This document shows, in pieces, positions 601 through 13,471 of a DNA stretch of 64,000 bases (positions within the stretch are counted from its first letter, which is position 1; each line of letters begins with the position of its first letter). The notes below the pieces were generated by a model. That model ran no database searches. It worked only from the letters and a program-made list of their open reading frames with translations, and was not told the DNA's origin. Origin of the DNA: Escherichia phage vB_EcoM-fFiEco06; the sequence record NC_054914.1; one strand, given 5' to 3'. Both the position numbers and the translations under genes were made by a program.

Positions 601-2281
601 TCTTAGCTAAACTAAATCTACCAACTTTTTCCATTTGAATATGCTGACCATATTCTTGTGGGTCATGGTCTTTATGCGAAATTATGAAGAAGTTGGTATC
701 CTTCAAACCATCTAAAATTTTAGCTACATTTTTAATACCTTCAGCATCAAATGCACCGTCATACACTTCATCAAGAAATAAACAACTTATTTTAACACCT
801 GAAACTTTTTCAGCAATATCACGCCAAGTAAATAAAAGAGCAATATCAATTCGTGCTTTTTCACCTTGACTGAATGAAGCATAACTAAAATCTTCGCGAC
901 CACGGGATTTAATTGTCTCATTAAATTCTTCATCTAATGTAAACACATAATCCGCTTCCATTATTTTAAGATAATGGTTAATCTGCTTATTAAATAATGG
1001 AATGTACTTTTTAATAATAGCACCTTTAATACCAGAATCTTTGAGCATATCAGTCAAAATTCCTCGGTGGTATTTTTCCATTACTAAATTAGTTTTTGTC
1101 TTAACAATTTTATCAAGTTCTTCTTGAAGCAGTGCTATTTCATCAGCATGGTCAATAAACTCAGAAGATGCTTTTTCTATAGCCGCTTTAACCTTTTTAG
1201 CTTTATCTACTGCTGCGATCAGAGATTGCTTTTTATTGCGAATATCATTTGCTAACGACTGTTGGGTTTTAATATTATCTCGGTATTCATCAACAAGAAC
1301 TTTTAAATTATCACGATGTGTTGAAAGCTGTTCAAACGAATGCGTACATTCAGAAACTTTATCTTTAATTTTAGAAACAACTTTATCACCGGAACTCAAT
1401 TGTGACAAACAGGTTGGACATAATCCACCTTCGTGATACATATTAATGACTTTATTATACGAGTCAATTTTTGATTTAATTAAAACTGCTTCTTGACCGA
1501 TTTTATTAAATGCATCAGTCGGGTCTTCATCTAAAACAATATTAACTAATCTTTCATTAGCTTCTTCTATTTCCGATTTTAGCGTTCTAGCTTCTTTTGC
1601 CAAATCATCATACATATTTTGCAGACGAGTAAGATTGTCACCCGTTAATTTTTTCTGGCGTTCAACGTTATCATTATATATTTTAATTTGTTGGATAATA
1701 CTATCTTTTTTAACGTCAAGCACTTGGTTTTGTGAATTTAATTCACGTATTAGTGCTTTATTAAGCTTATCCATTTCAGCTAATGTTCCTACCTCAAGCA
1801 GGTCTTCCACAAGCTTTCTTCGCGCAGGGGTCGACAAACCCATGAAAGGGGTATACCCTGCTGTACCAAGGACAACAATCTGCTTGAAACTGGCATATGA
1901 CATTCCGATAAGCTGTTCAAATTCTGCTTGGAAATCTTTACTGCTGGCAGATTCATTAAGACGTGTACCGTTAACGGTGATTTCAAAAACGTTCGGTTTT
2001 TGTCCTCTTTTGATATAGTACTTTTTCTCATCATATTCCATCCACAGTTCAACTAAAAGTTCTTTCTTATTTGTGCTGTTTATTAATTGACCTTTCTTTA
2101 CATCACGAAATGGCTTGCCAAAAAGCCCAAATGTGATGGCTTCTAGCATAGTAGACTTACCACCGCCATTTCGTCCAGTAATAAGAGTTTTTTGAACCTT
2201 ATCTAATTGAATGTCAATAGGATTTCCACCTACTGACATTATATTTTGATACCTAACTCGGTTTAGTTTAAAATTCTTCAC
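593..2281 (-). CDS. 46: Recombination endonuclease subunit gp46 (Rad50/SbcC-like ATPase)
   Basis: 562 aa; Walker A GRNGGGKST; long coiled-coil with CPTC zinc hook; synteny with gp47. Confidence 0.9.
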   Translation of the reverse strand: MKNFKLNRVRYQNIMSVGGNPIDIQLDKVQKTLITGRNGGGKSTMLEAITFGLFGKPFRDVKKGQLINSTNKKELLVELWMEYDEKKYYIKRGQKPNVFEITVNGTRLNESASSKDFQAEFEQLIGMSYASFKQIVVLGTAGYTPFMGLSTPARRKLVEDLLEVGTLAEMDKLNKALIRELNSQNQVLDVKKDSIIQQIKIYNDNVERQKKLTGDNLTRLQNMYDDLAKEARTLKSEIEEANERLVNIVLDEDPTDAFNKIGQEAVLIKSKIDSYNKVINMYHEGGLCPTCLSQLSSGDKVVSKIKDKVSECTHSFEQLSTHRDNLKVLVDEYRDNIKTQQSLANDIRNKKQSLIAAVDKAKKVKAAIEKASSEFIDHADEIALLQEELDKIVKTKTNLVMEKYHRGILTDMLKDSGIKGAIIKKYIPLFNKQINHYLKIMEADYVFTLDEEFNETIKSRGREDFSYASFSQGEKARIDIALLFTWRDIAEKVSGVKISCLFLDEVYDGAFDAEGIKNVAKILDGLKDTNFFIISHKDHDPQEYGQHIQMEKVGRFSLAKIS

Positions 2282-2541
2282 AAAAGATTCCTTTTAATGT
2301 ATCTTTTAGACCATTCTATCATATCATCATAATCTAAAAAGTATTCATCAAATTCAGCCATGCAAACAACGCCTTGTGCTGTTTTTGATGTAATATAAAT
2401 TATTCCAACATATCTAGAATCTTCTTCGGTGTAATCAATATTTGCTATGAATTCATCATTAATGTCAAATGTCGAAAACTTCACAGTATGCATCCTTAAT
2501 ACAAGATACGGCCATATCTCGTAATGATTTAGGTGTGTCAT
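2278..2541 (-). CDS. Hypothetical protein (46.1 position)
   Basis: 87 aa ORF between 46 and 47, overlapping the gene 46 start. Confidence 0.5.
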   Translation of the reverse strand: MTHLNHYEIWPYLVLRMHTVKFSTFDINDEFIANIDYTEEDSRYVGIIYITSKTAQGVVCMAEFDEYFLDYDDMIEWSKRYIKRNLL

Positions 2542-2728
2542 TATCTAAAATGTTGAAGTTAAAGGATACAGCCCAGTCAGTGCAGACCGTAACCTTTTTA
2601 ATACAATTATCTTCAACCTCTAGCGGTTCAAACCAATATTCAATAATTTCTTTATGCCCAATATCATCTTTTACTTCGCATTCAAAATGCTGACTCATCA
2701 TAACATTTTTAAATTCATCAAAAGTCAT
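2465..2728 (-). CDS. Hypothetical protein (46.2 position)
   Basis: 87 aa ORF; start overlaps the gene 47 stop. Overlaps the previous ORF, so the true start is probably internal. Confidence 0.45.
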   Translation of the reverse strand: MTFDEFKNVMMSQHFECEVKDDIGHKEIIEYWFEPLEVEDNCIKKVTVCTDWAVSFNFNILDNDTPKSLRDMAVSCIKDAYCEVFDI

Positions 2729-3744
2729 TGTGTTGCCTCTACATATAGCTGATTTGCATATTGAATAAGTGCTTCACGGTCAGAATCAGTGATGTCTGGA
2801 ATTGCATTAATATACTCTTCCATTAATGTCTGAAGCGATTGGACTTCAACTTCTTCACTGTCATCTGACTCGACAGAGTTATCAATCTTTGACACAACTC
2901 GTAATGAATGCACAACTTTCTCTAGTTCAGATTCAAACTTCGTCAGATTTTTGTCTACTTCAGTTACTATAACACGTACTGATAGATTTGTAAAATCTTT
3001 ATAGTCAATTTTTCCTTTAAATGGATAATGAATTCTACGATGCCAGGTAGTATTGTTTGGAATAAATTCCATTCGTTCTGTTTCTGTATCAAACATCCAG
3101 AACCCGCGAGGGTCATTCTCGTCACCTGCAGTTAGTGTCCATGGTGTCCCAATATATCTGACGTTAGCAGCCTCAGAGATAGTATGGAAGTGACCAGACC
3201 ACACTTCTTTATAAGTCTTAAGGAAATCAGGTTCAAGACCATGAGATTTCATTCCTTTATAAAAATAAAATCCATTCAGTTCCCAGTGACCAACACAAAA
3301 AGAAGCAGATGAAGTTTTGATGTGTTCAAGAATTTCACCAGTATTTTCTTCACACATCCAAGGAATTAAATCAATCAAACATCCGTCAAAATCTACTGTA
3401 GTAGGCTTATCATACACTTTAACATTAGGATATTTAGCCAAAAGCTCAGTAGAGGCATTTGGATGCATTACATTTTTATAGTGGAGATCGTGATTTCCTA
3501 CAATAGTGTGTAATGTAATTCCAGCATCATCAAGCGTTTGAACTATTTCACGGGCAAACTCCATAGTTTTATGTGTGATCGCTTTTCGCACATCAAAAAT
3601 ATCACCGTATTGAATCCAGGTAGTAATTCCATTTTTCTTAGAATATTCTATTGCTTGTTTAATTCCATCAATTTGAATACCGCGAATCCACTCATCATCA
3701 GCTTTAACGCCTAAATGCCAATCACCTAAATTTAAAATTTTCAT
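2725..3744 (-). CDS. 47: Recombination nuclease subunit gp47 (Mre11/SbcD-like phosphoesterase)
   Basis: 339 aa; calcineurin-like motifs GDWH, GNHD, GHxH. Confidence 0.9.
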   Translation of the reverse strand: MKILNLGDWHLGVKADDEWIRGIQIDGIKQAIEYSKKNGITTWIQYGDIFDVRKAITHKTMEFAREIVQTLDDAGITLHTIVGNHDLHYKNVMHPNASTELLAKYPNVKVYDKPTTVDFDGCLIDLIPWMCEENTGEILEHIKTSSASFCVGHWELNGFYFYKGMKSHGLEPDFLKTYKEVWSGHFHTISEAANVRYIGTPWTLTAGDENDPRGFWMFDTETERMEFIPNNTTWHRRIHYPFKGKIDYKDFTNLSVRVIVTEVDKNLTKFESELEKVVHSLRVVSKIDNSVESDDSEEVEVQSLQTLMEEYINAIPDITDSDREALIQYANQLYVEATQ

Positions 3745-9464: not shown

Positions 9465-9935
9465 TTAATCATGTGTCCACACCCCATCGGTATTTGACCA
9501 AAGCCGCTGATTATCTGATCCTCTCCACAGCTTTTTGGTCGGAAGATTTTTCTCATACTTCCCATCAATAATAACATCAACATATTTAAGCATTTCTAGT
9601 TGTTTAATATCTTCAAACTTATATCCTGTCCACAACCAAATGCTTTTATTTGGATAAAGATTTTTTACTGTTTGAACAATGCAATGAATAACATCTCGAT
9701 TATCAGGATAGAGAGGGTCTCCTCCAGTTATAGTTAATCCTTCTATATAATCATTATTCAAACATTCAATTAATTGTTCTAGTGTTTCACCAGTGAATGG
9801 AATACCATTTCTAGCATTCCATGTTGATTTATTATAACACCCTTCGCATTTATGCAAACAACCTGTAACGAAAAGAACGACCCTGCAACCAGGGCCATTC
9901 ACAAAATCGCAAGGATAAAATCTATCATAATTCAT
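9465..9935 (-). CDS. nrdG: Anaerobic ribonucleotide reductase activating protein (radical SAM)
   Basis: 156 aa; CxxxCxxC cluster (CLHKCEGC). Confidence 0.9.
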   Translation of the reverse strand: MNYDRFYPCDFVNGPGCRVVLFVTGCLHKCEGCYNKSTWNARNGIPFTGETLEQLIECLNNDYIEGLTITGGDPLYPDNRDVIHCIVQTVKNLYPNKSIWLWTGYKFEDIKQLEMLKYVDVIIDGKYEKNLPTKKLWRGSDNQRLWSNTDGVWTHD

Positions 9936-11749
9936 TGATGCTTAACCCTATGCATGATTTCTTTATTTTTGCCGAGATTAAATCCGCGTTCGTTCGGATT
10001 TCCCAAATAACCACATGTTCTTCTTATTGTATTCATCTTTTTAGGATCAGTTTCTCCACAAATAGAACAAACAAATCCGTTTTCAGTAGGAGTCATTTCA
10101 TGGGTACTTCTGCATGTAAAACATTTATCCACTGGCATATTAACACCAAAATAATCTAAATGTTGTGCAGCATAATCCCATACGGCCTCAAGACCTTTCA
10201 AGTTATTTTTCATATCAGGAAGTTCAACATAAGAAATGTGACCACCTGTCGCAATGAAATGATATGGCGCTTCACGAGAAATCTTTTCAAACGGAGTAAT
10301 ATTTTCTTCTACTGAGACATGGAAACTGTTAGTGTACCAGCCTTTATCGGTAACATCTTTTACGCTTCCATATTTTTCTGTATCGAGTTTACAGAAGCGA
10401 TAACAAAGGTTTTCAGCAGGAGTCGAATATAAACTAAAAGCAAATCCGGTTCTTTCAGTCCACTGTTTAAGATGAGCATTCATTTTAGTTAAAATTTCTC
10501 GTCCAATATCACGACCGACAAGAATATTCAATTCGTGAATACCAATGTATCCTAAAGACACTGAACTTCTACCGTTTTTAAATAACTCAATTATATCGTC
10601 ATCAGGTTTAAGACGAACCCCAAATGCACCTTCTTGGTAAAGAATAGGAGCAACAGTAGCTTTAACTCCTTTTAAGGAACTAATTCTACACATCAAAGCT
10701 TCAAAACATAAATCCATTCGTTCATTGAACAATTCAACAAATTTCTGTTCATTGAACTGTGTTCCAATATAAGAATCTAACGCGATGCGAGGAAGATTCA
10801 GTGTTACAACACCAAGATTATTACGTCCATCAAGAATTTCATTACCAGTCGAATCTTTCCATACGCCCAAGAAACTACGGCAACCCATTGGAGAAACAGG
10901 AACAGATGAACCAGTGATAGCTTTATTGTTCTTAGCTGAAATAATATCAGGATACATCCTTTTGCTTGCACACTCTAGAGCAAGCTGCTTAATATCATAG
11001 TTCGGATCGTCTTTATAAAGATTAACACCTTCTTCAACGAACATAACAAGCTTAGGGAAAATAGGAGTTATTCCATCACGACCAAGACCTTTAATACGAT
11101 TTTTCAGAATTGCTTTCTGAATCATTCGTTCAGTCCAGTCAGTTCCTGTACCAAATGTAATTGTTACAAAAGGTGTTTGTCCGTTTGAACTAAAGAGAGT
11201 ATTTACTTCATATTCATAAGCTTGGAATGCATCGTATACATCTTTTTCTGTTTTAGATTGAGCATAATTCAACGCATCAGCGATTTGCCATTTTTCTGCA
11301 TCCTCAATATGTTTTGCATAGGTGCGTTTAACATAAGGAGAAAGTACTTTATCGACATTAGCAAATGTAGTTCCGCCATATTGGTGAGAAGCAACCTGTG
11401 CAGTAATTTGTGCCATAATTGCAGTAGCAACACCGATTGATTTAGGAGTTTCAATCTGTGCATTACCAAGCTTAAATCCGTTCTCAAGCATTCCTTTTAA
11501 ATCTACTAAACAACAATTAGTAAATGGAAGAGCAGGGGAATAATCAATATCGTGGAAATGGATAATTCCGCTTTCATGCGCTTTCATAATAAAAGACGGG
11601 ACCATATTTTTGGCAATGTGTTTAGACACAATACCAGCCATAAGGTCCCGTTGAGTTGGAAAAACACGAGAATCTTTATTAGCATTCTCGTTTAAAAGGT
11701 CTTTATTAGTTTTATGAATCAATCCTTCAATTTCTTTTTCAATTGTCAT
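9932..11749 (-). CDS. nrdD: Anaerobic ribonucleoside-triphosphate reductase (glycyl radical enzyme), uninterrupted
   Basis: 605 aa continuous ORF; C-terminal zinc ribbon CFTC...CSIC and glycyl-radical region RRTCGYLG. Confidence 0.92.
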   Translation of the reverse strand: MTIEKEIEGLIHKTNKDLLNENANKDSRVFPTQRDLMAGIVSKHIAKNMVPSFIMKAHESGIIHFHDIDYSPALPFTNCCLVDLKGMLENGFKLGNAQIETPKSIGVATAIMAQITAQVASHQYGGTTFANVDKVLSPYVKRTYAKHIEDAEKWQIADALNYAQSKTEKDVYDAFQAYEYEVNTLFSSNGQTPFVTITFGTGTDWTERMIQKAILKNRIKGLGRDGITPIFPKLVMFVEEGVNLYKDDPNYDIKQLALECASKRMYPDIISAKNNKAITGSSVPVSPMGCRSFLGVWKDSTGNEILDGRNNLGVVTLNLPRIALDSYIGTQFNEQKFVELFNERMDLCFEALMCRISSLKGVKATVAPILYQEGAFGVRLKPDDDIIELFKNGRSSVSLGYIGIHELNILVGRDIGREILTKMNAHLKQWTERTGFAFSLYSTPAENLCYRFCKLDTEKYGSVKDVTDKGWYTNSFHVSVEENITPFEKISREAPYHFIATGGHISYVELPDMKNNLKGLEAVWDYAAQHLDYFGVNMPVDKCFTCRSTHEMTPTENGFVCSICGETDPKKMNTIRRTCGYLGNPNERGFNLGKNKEIMHRVKHQ

Positions 11750-12219
11750 TTTAAACTCTTTCTAAGCTGCTTCTTAAATGAAGCTATTAACTGTGTTTTG
11801 GTGTCAGATTCATTATATTCAAATCCTCTTTGAAGCATCTCGGCCATCATTTCCTCTTTTCCTAAACGAGAAAATTCCTTTGATTTATCTCCAACAAAGT
11901 TAGGGTGAATATTATTTTGGGTGTAATCGGATTTTAAATAAGTAAGTAAATTTTCTAACCATTCAAGATAATCAACACCTTGTCCCTTTAAGCCAGAACG
12001 ATTAAATTTATGCTTCATTTGACCTTCTGCAGCATTGCAGAGATTACAAAGCAATCCACGTATCTTTCCTGCTTTTGGTCCATTTAATTCATGGTCATGG
12101 TCGAGGTGATTAGCTTGAACATCAGGATTTAGTTCTCGTTGGCAAATTAAGCATTTACCGTTTTGTGCATTATAAAATTTTTGTTTTTCTTCTTTGTATA
12201 ATTTGCCAGTCAATAACAT
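11746..12219 (-). CDS. 49: Endonuclease VII (Holliday junction resolvase)
   Basis: 157 aa; CLICQ...HLDHDHELNG...CNLCN zinc/H-N-H motif. Confidence 0.9.
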   Translation of the reverse strand: MLLTGKLYKEEKQKFYNAQNGKCLICQRELNPDVQANHLDHDHELNGPKAGKIRGLLCNLCNAAEGQMKHKFNRSGLKGQGVDYLEWLENLLTYLKSDYTQNNIHPNFVGDKSKEFSRLGKEEMMAEMLQRGFEYNESDTKTQLIASFKKQLRKSLK

Positions 12220-12225
12220 AATAAA

Positions 12226-12250
12226 ACCCTTACCTTAAATAGATAAGGGT
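12226..12250 (-). promoter_or_regulatory. Hairpin sequestering the gene 49 ribosome-binding site
   Basis: Inverted repeat ACCCTTA ... TAAGGGT ends about 6 nt before the gene 49 AUG; the 3' arm contains AAGGG. Confidence 0.45.
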
Positions 12251-12260
12251 ATTTATTATT

Positions 12261-12316
12261 TTTAAGTATTGTAAAACATTCGATGCAATCGTTTATACTG
12301 TCGAATCATCTTTTTA
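12261..12316. repeat. Direct repeat copy 1 (about 55 bp)
   Basis: TTTAAGTATTGTAAAACATTCGATGCAATCGTTTATACTGTCGAATC, about 85% identical to the copy at 12474-12530. Confidence 0.6.
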
Positions 12317-12438
12317 GTAGGACGAGAATAGGTTCCTACGCAAGTGGTCATATGAGGGTCCGTAGAATGTCCTTTAATAAAAAGTTTCCAAACCTTACCG
12401 CCATTTAACTTTTCAGTATAAACCAATTCGGTTTTCAT
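12262..12438 (-). CDS. Small ORF (58 aa) sharing its C-terminus with the downstream-encoded 167 aa protein
   Basis: Hand translation MKTELVYTEKLNGG...IRQYKRLHRMFYNT; the last 14 aa and 3' flank repeat those of ORF 12475..12978. Confidence 0.3.
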   Translation of the reverse strand: MKTELVYTEKLNGGKVWKLFIKGHSTDPHMTTCVGTYSRPTKKMIRQYKRLHRMFYNT

Positions 12439-12473
12439 TAAAATGTCCTGTCAGAAAAAGAATTTTGAGTTTT

Positions 12474-12530
12474 TTCAAGTATTGTAAAACATTTGATGCA
12501 ATCGCTTATATTGCCGAATCTTTTGGTCAG
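12474..12530. repeat. Direct repeat copy 2 (about 55 bp)
   Basis: TTCAAGTATTGTAAAACATTTGATGCAATCGCTTATATTGCCGAATC; covers the 3' end of ORF 12475..12978. Confidence 0.6.
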
Positions 12531-12978
12531 AAAAAGAAATTTGAGTTTCAAGCCATTCAATGTACTCTGCGGCAGCTTGCATCAGGTTACCTTCATAGCC
12601 ATCGTTATTTTCTTGCGCAGCTAATTTAGCTAATGCGTATGAAATACGTTCACCTTGAAAAGCGGCTTTAGGCTTCTGAACATCTTGGCTAGTTCTCTCT
12701 ACAACTTCTTCAATTTCGCCATTTTCAACGGATTCAGTATTCCACAAACACCAGTATGTAATTGGCTTATCATAGATGTTAATAATCTTTCCGTCGGAAA
12801 GTTCAATTTCAATAATTCCAGTATCAGGTTCTATATCATCTTCGCATTCTTTTGCAAGTTCACGAACTTTAAAGACAGTACCTGCACTAAGTTCCGGCCA
12901 GTAATTACATAGCCCTGTATCAACACGATTAATTCTAAACCACTTATCTACTGTAATCATGTCCCATCTCCATATCAA
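12475..12978 (-). CDS. pin: Hypothetical protein, possible Lon protease inhibitor PinA homolog
   Basis: Position immediately upstream of gene 49 as in T4; the second Met would give 161 aa. Identity not verified. Confidence 0.4.
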   Translation of the reverse strand: MIWRWDMITVDKWFRINRVDTGLCNYWPELSAGTVFKVRELAKECEDDIEPDTGIIEIELSDGKIINIYDKPITYWCLWNTESVENGEIEEVVERTSQDVQKPKAAFQGERISYALAKLAAQENNDGYEGNLMQAAAEYIEWLETQISFSDQKIRQYKRLHQMFYNT

Positions 12979-13255
12979 TTAAGTCATTTATCGTTGGTTC
13001 ATTATATACTGTTTCTTCATCAGTGTAAACCGGTTCTTCCGGCTCTGGCTCTACAGTTTCCCATCTAGCCGCCCACCAAGGTTTAACCCCGAAGCTTATT
13101 AAGTTCTTCATAATCAATCCAGGATTCTAATCCTGATGGCAAATCAGATTCAATTTCCCAAAGAAGCTCTTCAATTTTCTGAAGACGATCTAGTTCTTCG
13201 GCTGGAATAGTAACCATTGACGGAGCTCGTGATACATTAATATCGTAAATCATAT

Positions 13256-13471
13256 TTACCCCAATTTAACCATACAATCGCCGTATTTCCACTTAGAAAT
13301 AGACTTTTCACCATTAGAATAATAAACTTCGAGTTTAGCACGATTATTTTTAATTTGAATAACCTTGGCTGTCATCAAAGTTCCATACCCATAATAAACT
13401 GCAACTTCATCACCTACATATACCGCGCTTCCGCGGTAATCATGAATATAGTCAGTTCCTTCAAGCATCAT
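13256..13471 (-). CDS. Hypothetical small protein
   Basis: 71 aa ORF directly downstream of nrdC. Confidence 0.45.
   Translation of the reverse strand: MMLEGTDYIHDYRGSAVYVGDEVAVYYGYGTLMTAKVIQIKNNRAKLEVYYSNGEKSISKWKYGDCMVKLG

What the first reader, a model, noticed from the sequence alone, without database searches (positions are those of the whole stretch)
12220..12530. Duplicated gene 3' end: a 55-bp direct repeat gives two adjacent ORFs the same C-terminal 14 residues
The 167 aa ORF (12475..12978, possible pin) and a 58 aa ORF (12262..12438) both end ...IRQYKRLH(Q/R)MFYNT, and their 3' ends lie in about 85% identical direct repeats (12261-12316 and 12474-12530). This looks like a recombination scar or partial duplication.
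Basis: seen in the sequence. Interest (0 to 1): 0.4.

Follow-up and report, generated by a model that had tools for sequence, protein, structure and literature searches.

The report
Pin gene borrowed its neighbour's tail
The repeat is real: in this T4-like phage the Lon-protease inhibitor gene pin ends with 15 codons taken from a small neighbouring gene, and the phage also keeps an intact copy of that neighbour, so the same tail occurs twice; this is an ordinary recombination product.

Summary
Window 12262-12307 and 12475-12520 are 41/46 (89%) identical, far beyond chance, and both ORFs end IRQYKRLH(R/Q)MFYNT. The window is a Tequatrovirus; the gene order on the minus strand is pin, ORF58, gene 49 (endonuclease VII), nrdD.

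ORF58 is a conserved gene under purifying selection (Pfam DUF7279, phrog_3272). It lies directly upstream of gene 49 in several Tevenvirinae genera and always carries this tail. Pin family profiles end at residue 141-146. In other genera, and in about 114 Tequatrovirus genomes, Pin ends ...SFSDRAF* and overlaps the ORF58 start (TAATG).

T4-type Pin (161 aa) equals that arrangement minus 137 nt, which joins Pin to the last 15 ORF58 codons. The window carries the fused pin, then a 36-nt relic of an unfused pin 3' end, then an intact ORF58. This is 213 nt more than T4. The most likely origin is an unequal crossover between a T4-type and a split-type phage.

In the phage collection, 114 records have this arrangement, about 275 are T4-type and about 114 are unfused. 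A Mosigvirus contig shows an independent Pin-tail fusion, and another shows a deletion between two such tails. The function of ORF58 is unknown. Interest is modest.

The parts
12475..12960 (-). pin (PinA, inhibitor of host Lon protease), 161 aa, T4-type fused allele
   Evidence: ORF (ATG at 12960). Pfam Inhibitor_I24 160.8 bits and phrog_2167. Annotated as pin in relatives and in T4.
12523..12960 (-). Pin residues 1-146, the part that belongs to the Pin family
   Evidence: Pfam I24 covers residues 4-141 and phrog_2167 covers 1-146 of 146. Unfused Pins of other phages end two residues later...SFSDRAF*.
12475..12522 (-). Pin residues 147-161 (KIRQYKRLHQMFYNT) plus the TGA stop: the tail captured from a DUF7279 gene. 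It contains repeat copy B (12475-12520).
   Evidence: These residues hit phrog_3272 positions 44-58 (E 0.0098) and my DUF7279 HMM positions 44-58 in the identical pin of L011 (Yersinia phage ZN18; E 2e-4) and in T4-type pins (E 1e-3). In-register identity to 12262-12307 is 41/46.
12526..12552 (-). Segment A: pin codons L-E-T-Q-I-S-F-S-D, the first copy of the short second repeat
   Evidence: the repeat finder family D2; alignment with T4 and the split-type phages.
12439..12474 (-). Spacer between pin and ORF58. It is a relic of the last ~12 codons of an unfused pin (segment A', which continues to 12479 and overlaps the pin stop). It includes a relic TAA stop (12438-12440) overlapping the ORF58 ATG, and AGGA (12446-12449) 7 nt upstream of the ATG.
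   Evidence: It reads (L)EKTQNSFSDRTF* (40-aa ORF 12438-12560). It matches the pin 3' end of split-type phage vB_Eco_F25 at 35/36 positions with one 3-nt indel.
12262..12438 (-). ORF58, an intact DUF7279 / phrog_3272 gene (58 aa). Codons 1-43 (12310-12438) are unique. Codons 44-58 plus the stop (12262-12309) are its native tail and contain repeat copy B' (12262-12307).
   Evidence: Pfam DUF7279 62.7 bits against a cutoff of 24.5, covering residues 7-56. phrog_3272 E 3.4e-34. dN/dS 0.1-0.3 against homologues. Annotated as a CDS in relatives. Predicted three strands plus a C-terminal helix at residues 42-56.
12220..12261 (-). Gene 49 leader: a late-promoter-like AATAAATA and a hairpin (12226-12250) just before the gene 49 ATG. 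It is conserved whatever lies upstream.
   Evidence: Hairpin found (I20). Late promoter annotated in phage ASO78A. Near-identical in T4, PEC04, F25 and in Gaprivervirus, Dhakavirus and Mosigvirus.
11746..12219 (-). Gene 49 (endonuclease VII), the downstream anchor of the locus
   Evidence: ORF; annotation; 44 related loci recovered with it.

Best explanation
The repeat marks a gene fusion followed by a recombination event.

(1) Ancestral state (shown). Pin ended ...WLExQxSFSDRAF*, and its stop overlapped (TAATG) the start of a small DUF7279 gene. That gene's own C-terminal helix is ...RPTKKMIRQYKRLHRMFYNT, and gene 49 followed it.

(2) Fusion. A 137-nt deletion removed the last two pin codons, the stop and DUF7279 codons 1-43. 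This put DUF7279 codons 44-58 in frame behind Pin ...SFSDR and created the 161-aa 'T4-type' PinA. The sequence equivalence is shown; the deletion event itself is inferred.

(3) Recombination (inferred). The window's lineage joined the end of a fused pin to a point 13 codons before the end of an unfused pin in a genome like vB_Eco_F25. The junction lies at or next to a CTTGAAA/A-run microhomology. This was most likely an unequal crossover in a mixed infection.

The product is: fused pin, a 36-nt relic of the unfused pin end that still supplies AGGA and the ATG context for ORF58, intact ORF58, then gene 49. The 46-50-nt repeat therefore has no function of its own. It consists of two diverged alleles of the same DUF7279 tail, one now part of Pin and one still in its own gene.

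Consequence (inferred). Recombination between the two tail copies would delete ORF58 and give the T4 arrangement. Recombination between the two short A copies would restore the split arrangement. The three arrangements found in nature are thus interconvertible. ORF58 is a real, expressed small basic protein of unknown function.
For: - The window has exactly 213 nt more than T4, bounded by the repeat.
- Split arrangements without any repeat exist in Tequatrovirus PEC04, F25 and Sa45lw and in Gaprivervirus, Dhakavirus, Mosigvirus and others.
- Where DUF7279 is absent, Pin ends ...FSDRAF* directly before gene 49.
- The tail is inside the DUF7279 profile and outside the Pin profiles. A distant homologue, P0048, keeps it.
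- Removing 137 nt from the PEC04 sequence reproduces the T4 pin 3' end apart from 3 substitutions.
- The junction variants DRMIQQ (T4), DQMIRQ and DQKIRQ (window) are all 161 aa and are linked by single substitutions, which fits one fusion event.
- Pin tails differ from each other at 0-2 of 45 positions, from the PEC04 ORF58 tail at 2-3, and from the window/F25 ORF58 tail at 4-6.
- The window spacer matches the F25 unfused pin end at 35/36, and the F25 ORF58 differs at 3/177 from the window's.
- ORF58 dN/dS is 0.1-0.3.
- The arrangement is not an assembly artefact: 114 independent records carry the specific junction, 391 carry a fused pin junction and about 114 have only the unfused form.
- Natural precedents occur in Mosigvirus. 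An independent Pin...LERR|FHRDFYNVY fusion lies at an ACGTTT microhomology, followed directly by gene 49. A ~600-nt deletion lies exactly between two DUF7279 tails.
Against: - The order of events is not proven. A 213-nt tandem duplication of a split arrangement followed by the 137-nt deletion in the first copy would give the same structure.
- The pin body is mosaic. No sampled genome is clearly the donor of the left arm: 16-34 differences per 424 nt to every T4-type and split-type genome tested.
- The junction has three extra A's compared with a clean CTTGAAA microhomology join.
- I found no deletion product of this particular lineage, meaning a fused pin ending in TAA. IMG/VR holds only four T4-type contigs, so that search has little power.
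- Expression of ORF58 is inferred from conservation only.
Confidence: 0.8

Rival explanations
1. In-place tandem duplication. In a split-type genome, the 213-nt unit (last 13 pin codons plus ORF58) duplicated at the CTTGA microhomology. The ORF58 body in the first copy was then deleted, fusing pin to the first tail. T4-type phages would then descend from this arrangement by loss of the second copy.
For: It gives the same A-B-A'-X-B' layout with the same number of events. The 76-nt spacing of A/A' and the CTTGA overlap at the pin stop fit a tandem junction. Tandem duplication does occur in this region, if the UPWr_E4 record is correct.
Against: The two tail copies differ at 5/45 positions, whereas the pin copy is 0-1/45 from T4-type pin tails found in genomes without ORF58. 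No intermediate with two full ORF58 copies flanking a relic was seen among the records inspected. All T4-type tails end in TGA and carry the Q-for-R change. The local ORF58 tail ends in TAA with R, so T4-type genomes are not simple deletion products of this lineage.
Confidence: 0.12
2. The tail is pin's own 3' end, and a small foreign ORF inserted into or next to it, copying the pin end as a kind of target-site duplication or 3'-end duplication.
For: T4 itself, the reference genome, has the tail on pin and no ORF58, so from T4 alone this looks like an insertion. The 213 extra nt are flanked by direct repeats.
Against: DUF7279 homologues carry the tail in genera where Pin lacks it. The Pfam DUF7279 model spans the tail. 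A paralogue elsewhere (upstream of pin in Mosigvirus) has the same type of tail. Pin profiles end before the tail. No homing endonuclease, transposase or inverted repeats are present.
Confidence: 0.03
3. The shared tail is maintained by selection as a functional module. The basic C-terminal helix binds a common partner (Lon, Pin itself or nucleic acid). Its presence on both proteins, and its repeated capture by Pin, would then be adaptive and not a neutral scar. This can coexist with the best explanation for the origin.
For: Pin captured a DUF7279 tail twice independently, in Tequatrovirus and in Mosigvirus. A whole DUF7279 paralogue is fused to Pin in two independent samples. In 15 of the 17 IMG/VR loci that hold an intact DUF7279 gene, a Pin-domain ORF lies upstream of it, directly adjacent in 3 of them (L014, L019, L021); the other two (L015, L020) have no Pin. 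The stop/start overlap (TAATG or TGATG) was read in five split-type loci: PEC04, AnYang, F25, L014 and L019. Three of the four sense-codon differences between the window's two tails are synonymous, and the fifth difference is stop-to-stop. The fused allele is the majority form.
Against: Within Pin tails, the changes seen are mostly amino-acid changing (R>Q, H>N, RM>QM>QK), which suggests relaxed constraint. Most Pin homologues across genera work without any tail. In-frame fusions may be favoured simply because they keep termination at the normal stop ahead of the gene 49 promoter and hairpin. The out-of-frame recombinant YwIITB1 reads through into gene 49. The Pin model is of low confidence (pLDDT 65), with the tail merely extending the last helix.
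Confidence: 0.2
4. Chance similarity or an assembly artefact.
For: None beyond the short length of the repeat.
Against: The score is 34 against a null maximum of 17. The same junction is present in 114 independently sequenced genomes.
Confidence: 0

Closest known systems
T4 PinA (gene pin, UniProt P07068), the Lon protease inhibitor; Pfam Inhibitor_I24
   Same: The window's pin is the same 161-aa fused form, and its Pin domain is a clear family member. T4 pin ends ...SFSDRMIQQYKRLHQMFYNT, the same captured tail.
   Different: T4 has no ORF58 after pin, and the window has 213 extra nt. The point that the last 15 residues of the biochemically studied PinA lie outside the family and come from a neighbouring gene did not turn up in the papers I could search. 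Those searches did not target it directly, and the original 1988 and 1998 papers were not readable here.
Split pin + DUF7279 arrangement of Tequatrovirus PEC04 / HY01 / vB_Eco_F25 and of Gaprivervirus, Dhakavirus and Mosigvirus
   Same: The same two genes in the same order directly upstream of gene 49. The F25 ORF58 is 174/177 identical to the window's, and the F25 pin end matches the window's spacer relic.
   Different: There, Pin is 148 aa (or shorter, or fragmented) and lacks the tail, so there is no repeat.
Fusion of adjacent cistrons by deletion in T4 (classical example: the rII deletion r1589 joining rIIA to rIIB; from my own knowledge)
   Same: A deletion removes the end of the upstream gene and the start of the downstream gene, giving one hybrid reading frame.
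   Different: The fusion here is natural, in frame by a 137-nt deletion across a frame shift between the two genes. It is fixed in most Tequatrovirus genomes, and in the window it was later re-combined with an intact copy of the donor gene.
Modular shuffling in the plastic regions of T4-type genomes (Comeau et al. 2007; Arbiol et al. 2010, promoter-stem-loop cassettes; from my own knowledge)
   Same: Small accessory ORFs between conserved genes come and go by recombination at short repeated sequences. ES12 and ES21 differ at 3 sites from gene 49 rightward (about 1.07 kb) and at 54 sites leftward (about 0.93 kb) of this junction.
   Different: The repeats here are coding sequence (a gene tail and a pin fragment), not early-promoter/stem-loop cassettes. 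No sigma-70-like promoter match lies in 12220-12560.

Membership tests
Pfam DUF7279 (PF23945) / phrog_3272, for ORF58 | Score above the curated Pfam gathering threshold over the full model | tested here: met
   62.7 bits against a cutoff of 24.5; residues 7-56 match model positions 1-53 of 53. phrog_3272 E 3.4e-34 over 1-58.
Pfam DUF7279 (PF23945) / phrog_3272, for ORF58 | Conserved C-terminal motif (R/K)PTK.(M/Q)IR..K+..R.F shared by family members | tested here: met
   R39 P40 T41 K42 I45 R46 K49 R50 H52 R53 F55 are invariant in alignment A1. The motif is also present in the distant members P0048 and L018/L019 and in the Mosigvirus paralogue.
Pfam DUF7279 (PF23945) / phrog_3272, for ORF58 | Evolves as a protein-coding gene | tested here: met
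   dN/dS 0.09-0.30 in 27 of 28 pairwise comparisons (one saturated pair gave no estimate), with pS up to 0.77.
PinA peptidase inhibitor I24 (PF10465), for the 161-aa ORF | Score above the gathering threshold | tested here: met
   160.8 bits against a cutoff of 27.
PinA peptidase inhibitor I24 (PF10465), for the 161-aa ORF | The whole protein belongs to the family, including the C-terminal 15 residues | tested here: not met
   The family models end at residue 141 (Pfam) or 146 (PHROG). Residues 147-161 match the DUF7279 family instead. 14 of 18 aligned Pins lack the tail.
PinA peptidase inhibitor I24 (PF10465), for the 161-aa ORF | Inhibits E. coli Lon | not testable with these tools
   Known for T4 PinA only (papers cited).
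Recent in-place segmental duplication | The two copies are each other's closest relatives | tested here: not met
   The pin copy is 0-1/45 from T4-type pin tails and 2/45 from the PEC04 ORF58 tail, but 5/45 from the adjacent ORF58 tail.
Mobile-element insertion with target-site duplication (homing endonuclease gene, IS, MITE) | Encodes or is bounded by mobility functions: an endonuclease or transposase, terminal inverted repeats, and short exact target duplications | tested here: not met
   The 213 nt contain only ORF58 (DUF7279) and a pin relic. The repeat finder reported no inverted-repeat pair positioned at the ends of the 213-nt insert. The repeats are 46-50 nt and diverged. ORF58 is syntenic across genera.
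Promoter-stem-loop (PeSL) shuffling cassettes of T4-type phages | Flanking repeats consist of an early sigma-70 promoter plus a stem-loop | tested here: not met
   No promoter-like match lies within 12220-12560. The only hairpin is the gene 49 leader hairpin at 12226-12250, outside the repeat.

The most novel reading that the evidence does not exclude
Pin and the DUF7279 protein are functional partners, and the DUF7279 C-terminal basic helix is a portable module that improves or redirects Lon inhibition, for example by tethering Pin to Lon or to nucleic acid. That would explain why Pin captured this helix independently in Tequatrovirus and Mosigvirus, why a whole DUF7279 paralogue is fused to Pin in some phages, and why the fused allele dominates. 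It would also mean that the T4 PinA used in all Lon biochemistry is a two-gene chimera whose tail matters for its mechanism.
Probability: 0.15. Interest if true: 0.55.

Novelty: new member of a known kind. Interest (0 to 1): 0.3.

Why it matters
The finding explains a puzzling repeat with a complete and testable history. It gives a clean natural example of a hybrid gene created by deletion between neighbouring phage genes and then re-assorted by recombination. All three allelic states co-circulate in about 500 sequenced T-even phages (roughly 23% window-type, 54% T4-type, 23% unfused).

Three practical consequences follow:
- The small ORF should be annotated as a real gene (DUF7279), not dismissed as a duplication artefact.
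- The last 15 residues of T4 PinA, the standard Lon inhibitor, are not part of the Pin family. Structure-function work on PinA should therefore compare the 148-aa and 161-aa forms.
- The recurrent Pin-DUF7279 fusions give a weak 'Rosetta stone' hint about the function of an uncharacterised protein family.

Tried and rejected
- **Chance or artefact.** Rejected by simulation and by the 114 independent genomes that carry the junction.
- **Mobile-element insertion.** No mobility gene or terminal inverted repeats were found.
- **DNA- or RNA-level reason for conservation of the tail.** Between genera the tail changes mainly at synonymous sites (CGA/CGT/CGG, CAG/CAA), so conservation is at the protein level. 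No promoter-like match lies in the repeat.
- **Function of ORF58 from structure.** The AlphaFold model has three strands plus a helix, with pLDDT 81.7 for the best model and 52-63 for the other four. Foldseek against the PDB gave nothing significant (best E 0.27). Several weak hits were dsRNA-binding-domain-like folds, which is a lead only. Neither protein has a sequence relative in the PDB.
- **Wider family search.** The exhaustive HMMER search found only 5 credible representatives (P0044, P0045, P0046, P0048 and the 29-aa fragment P0049), which resemble the T4-like-phage homologues seen here (that library gives no source information). The long repetitive hits are spurious.
- **Pin structure.** The model is of low confidence (pLDDT 65). 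The tail is modelled as a continuation of the last helix and was not used for inference.
- **Donor of the left arm.** The pin body is mosaic and no clear parent was found.
- **ES12 versus ES21.** This pair shows a sharp change in similarity at the junction, but the ES21 tail and leader are pure T4-type, so it is not a tail-by-tail recombinant.
- **Deletion products.** The search for fused pins ending in TAA in IMG/VR found none, but only four T4-type contigs are present, so it has little power.
- **Literature.** Nothing was found on DUF7279, and none of the PinA papers retrieved (searches not aimed specifically at its C-terminus) mentions a chimeric C-terminus. Skorupski et al. 1988 was not available.

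Full report
**What is there.** The window is a Tequatrovirus (T4-like phage). Positions 11740-13260 are 100% identical to Escherichia phages vB_EcoM-fHoEco02 and UPWr_E2, and 730 phage records match. On the minus strand the genes run pin (12960-12475, 161 aa from the ATG), a 58-aa ORF (12438-12262), gene 49/endonuclease VII (12219-11746) and nrdD.

The reported repeat is real. The best self-match score in a 2-kb region is 34, against 11.7 ± 1.1 (maximum 17) in 200 Markov resamples. The two ORFs end IRQYKRLHRMFYNT and IRQYKRLHQMFYNT.

CTTGAAACTCAAATTTCTTTTTCTGAC inside pin (12526-12552) recurs, with three extra A's and one substitution, in the spacer between pin and ORF58 (12450-12479), overlapping the pin stop. 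The layout on the coding strand is therefore A-B-A'-X-B'. B and B' are the tails and X is the unique part of ORF58.

**Comparison with T4.** T4 has pin followed after 41 nt by gene 49 and has no ORF58. Aligned to T4, the window has exactly 213 extra nucleotides, bounded by the repeat.

**The small ORF is a real, older gene, and the tail is its own.**
- ORF58 matches Pfam DUF7279 at 62.7 bits (cutoff 24.5) over the whole model, including the tail. It matches phrog_3272 at E 3.4e-34.
- Homologues sit directly upstream of gene 49 in Gaprivervirus (P896), Dhakavirus (AnYang), Mosigvirus (moha) and further T4-like lineages from IMG/VR. All carry the ...RPTKKMIRQ(Y/F)KR(L/F)HR.FY... ending.
- The most distant member found, P0048, keeps LIRRYKRINRLFNF.
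- Pairwise dN/dS is 0.09-0.30, with synonymous divergence up to 0.77.
- A model of moderate confidence shows three strands followed by a helix at residues 42-56, so the shared tail is that helix.

The Pin family models, by contrast, stop before the tail: Pfam I24 at residue 141 and phrog_2167 at 146 of 146. Pin residues 147-161 hit phrog_3272 positions 44-58. Across genera, Pin homologues end ...(W/Y)LE.Q..FSD(R/K)AF*.

**The split arrangement exists in close relatives.** In Tequatrovirus PEC04, Sa45lw and vB_Eco_F25, Pin is 148 aa and ends ...WLETQ(I/N/K)SFSDRAF. Its TAA overlaps the ATG of ORF58 (TAATG), and there is no repeat.

Deleting 137 nt from the PEC04 sequence means removing GCATTTTA plus ORF58 codons 1-43. 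This gives TCTGACCGA|ATGATTCGACAA..., which is the T4 pin end apart from three substitutions. T4-type Pin is therefore Pin(1-146) fused in frame to the last 15 codons of the neighbouring DUF7279 gene.

The junction variants seen in databases are DRMIQQ (T4), DQMIRQ and DQKIRQ (window). All give 161 aa and are connected by single substitutions. Together with the shared R-to-Q change six residues from the end, this points to one fusion event.

**How the window's arrangement arose.** The spacer after the pin stop reads (L)EKTQNSFSDRTF* followed by the ORF58 ATG. It matches the unfused pin end of F25 at 35/36 positions, with one 3-nt indel. The F25 ORF58 differs from the window's at only 3 of 177 positions. 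The pin tail in the window is 0-1/45 from the tails of T4-type pins and 2/45 from the PEC04 ORF58 tail, but 5/45 from its own neighbour.

The simplest reading is an unequal crossover between a T4-type genome and an F25-like split-type genome. It joined ...ACTTGAAAA just after the fused pin stop to AACTCAAAATTC..., 13 codons before the end of the unfused pin. I rate this step as inferred, at about 0.6. The alternative, a 213-nt tandem duplication followed by the 137-nt deletion in copy 1, needs the same number of events and is disfavoured mainly by the divergence pattern of the tails. The pin body itself is mosaic and gave no clear parent.

**Population picture.** All counts are from the 50,697-record phage collection.

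| Arrangement | Records | Source |
|---|---|---|
| Window-specific junction (B-A'-X) at ≥80% coverage | 114 | |
| Fused A-B junction (window-type plus T4-type) | 391 | |
| T4-type, by subtraction (includes T2 and T6) | about 275 | |
| Only the unfused A part matches | about 114 | |
| X present, in any arrangement or genus | 264 | |

The three states co-circulate.

**Further rearrangements at the same short homologies.**
- Ec_YwIITB1 joins the ORF58 body out of frame to a piece of fused pin.
- UPWr_E4 has a 695-nt tandem repeat of ORF58 plus gene 49.
- ES12 and ES21 differ at 3 sites from gene 49 rightward (about 1.07 kb) and at 54 sites leftward (about 0.93 kb) of the junction.

**Independent parallels in Mosigvirus.**
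- One contig has Pin...EYLERR|FHRDFYNVY followed directly by gene 49. This is a separate deletion at an ACGTTT microhomology that again captures a DUF7279 tail.
- Another contig has lost about 600 nt, including pin, exactly between the tails of two DUF7279 paralogues. This is the kind of repeat-mediated deletion predicted for the window's B/B' pair.
- In two independent samples a whole DUF7279 paralogue is fused to the N-terminus of Pin.

**Function.** The repeat itself needs no function. ORF58 keeps a Shine-Dalgarno-like AGGA 7 nt before its ATG inside the relic. It is highly basic, with 12 K/R against 3 D/E.

No significant structural or PDB relative was found. The weak top Foldseek hits include several dsRNA-binding-domain-like folds, which I treat as a lead only. 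Whether the tail matters for Pin is open. Most Pins lack it, and the substitutions seen in Pin tails are mostly non-synonymous, which suggests relaxed constraint. On the other hand, it was captured twice and the fused allele is the commonest. A neutral reason for in-frame capture is that it preserves termination ahead of the gene 49 late promoter and leader hairpin (12226-12250).

**Literature.** The PinA papers I could read treat the 161-aa T4 protein as a unit and do not mention a chimeric C-terminus. No paper mentions DUF7279.

**Verdict.** This is an ordinary kind of event in the plastic regions of T-even genomes, worked out here in unusual detail, with a modest biochemical implication for PinA.

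Noticed in passing
L052 (Escherichia phage UPWr_E4, PP418987.1 6500-10500), locus 1822-3209: Tandem 695-nt duplication of ORF58 + leader + gene 49. The first gene 49 copy is truncated near codon 137 and runs out of frame into pin-tail/spacer sequence. It could be a real duplication or an assembly artefact.
   Followed up: partly
L053 (Escherichia phage Ec_YwIITB1, PQ356294.1), locus 1137-1397: The ORF58 N-terminal part is joined out of frame to a fragment of a fused pin (ATTCTTTTTCTGACCAAACGATTCGG...). The result is an 86-aa ORF that reads through the leader into gene 49, another rearrangement at the same short homologies.
   Followed up: partly
L013, L016, L017 (IMG/VR loci with gp49 86-87% identical to the window's; by ORF similarity like Gaprivervirus/Dhakavirus), about 1300-1800: The Pin domain is split into two ORFs in permuted order. 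A 57-aa ORF matching the C-terminal helices (HMM 98-147) comes first, then a 100-aa ORF matching the N-terminal beta part (HMM 1-79), then DUF7279.
   Followed up: no
L007 (phage moha), L020, L021, L056-L058 (Mosigvirus-like): A second DUF7279 paralogue lies upstream of pin. L020 has lost pin through a deletion between the two paralogue tails. L021's downstream copy is frameshifted. P0037 is a paralogue-Pin fusion seen in two samples.
   Followed up: partly
window 13083-13253 (-), 56-aa ORF: It matches phrog_3402 ('antitoxin from a toxin-antitoxin system', E 2.6e-40). It has a weak, sub-threshold Pfam hit to the T7 gp5.9 RecBCD inhibitor (E 5.6e-4, 20.2 bits against a cutoff of 24.5) and to phrog_6234 'host RecBCD nuclease inhibitor'.
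   Followed up: no
window 9932-11749 (-), nrdD: nrdD is a single uninterrupted 605-aa ORF, whereas T4 nrdD is split by the group I intron that carries I-TevII. This phage has the intron-less allele.
   Followed up: no
window 12226-12250 (-): A 10-bp-stem hairpin immediately before the gene 49 start codon, preceded by a late-promoter-like AATAAATA. It is almost invariant across genera whatever gene lies upstream, and is presumably the known translational control element of gene 49.
   Followed up: partly
L063/L064 (phages ES12 and ES21, same study): The two genomes are nearly identical from gene 49 rightward (3 differences in about 1.07 kb) but about 6% divergent in pin and upstream. They also differ in the presence of the ORF58 cassette, so a recombination breakpoint coincides with this junction.
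   Followed up: partly
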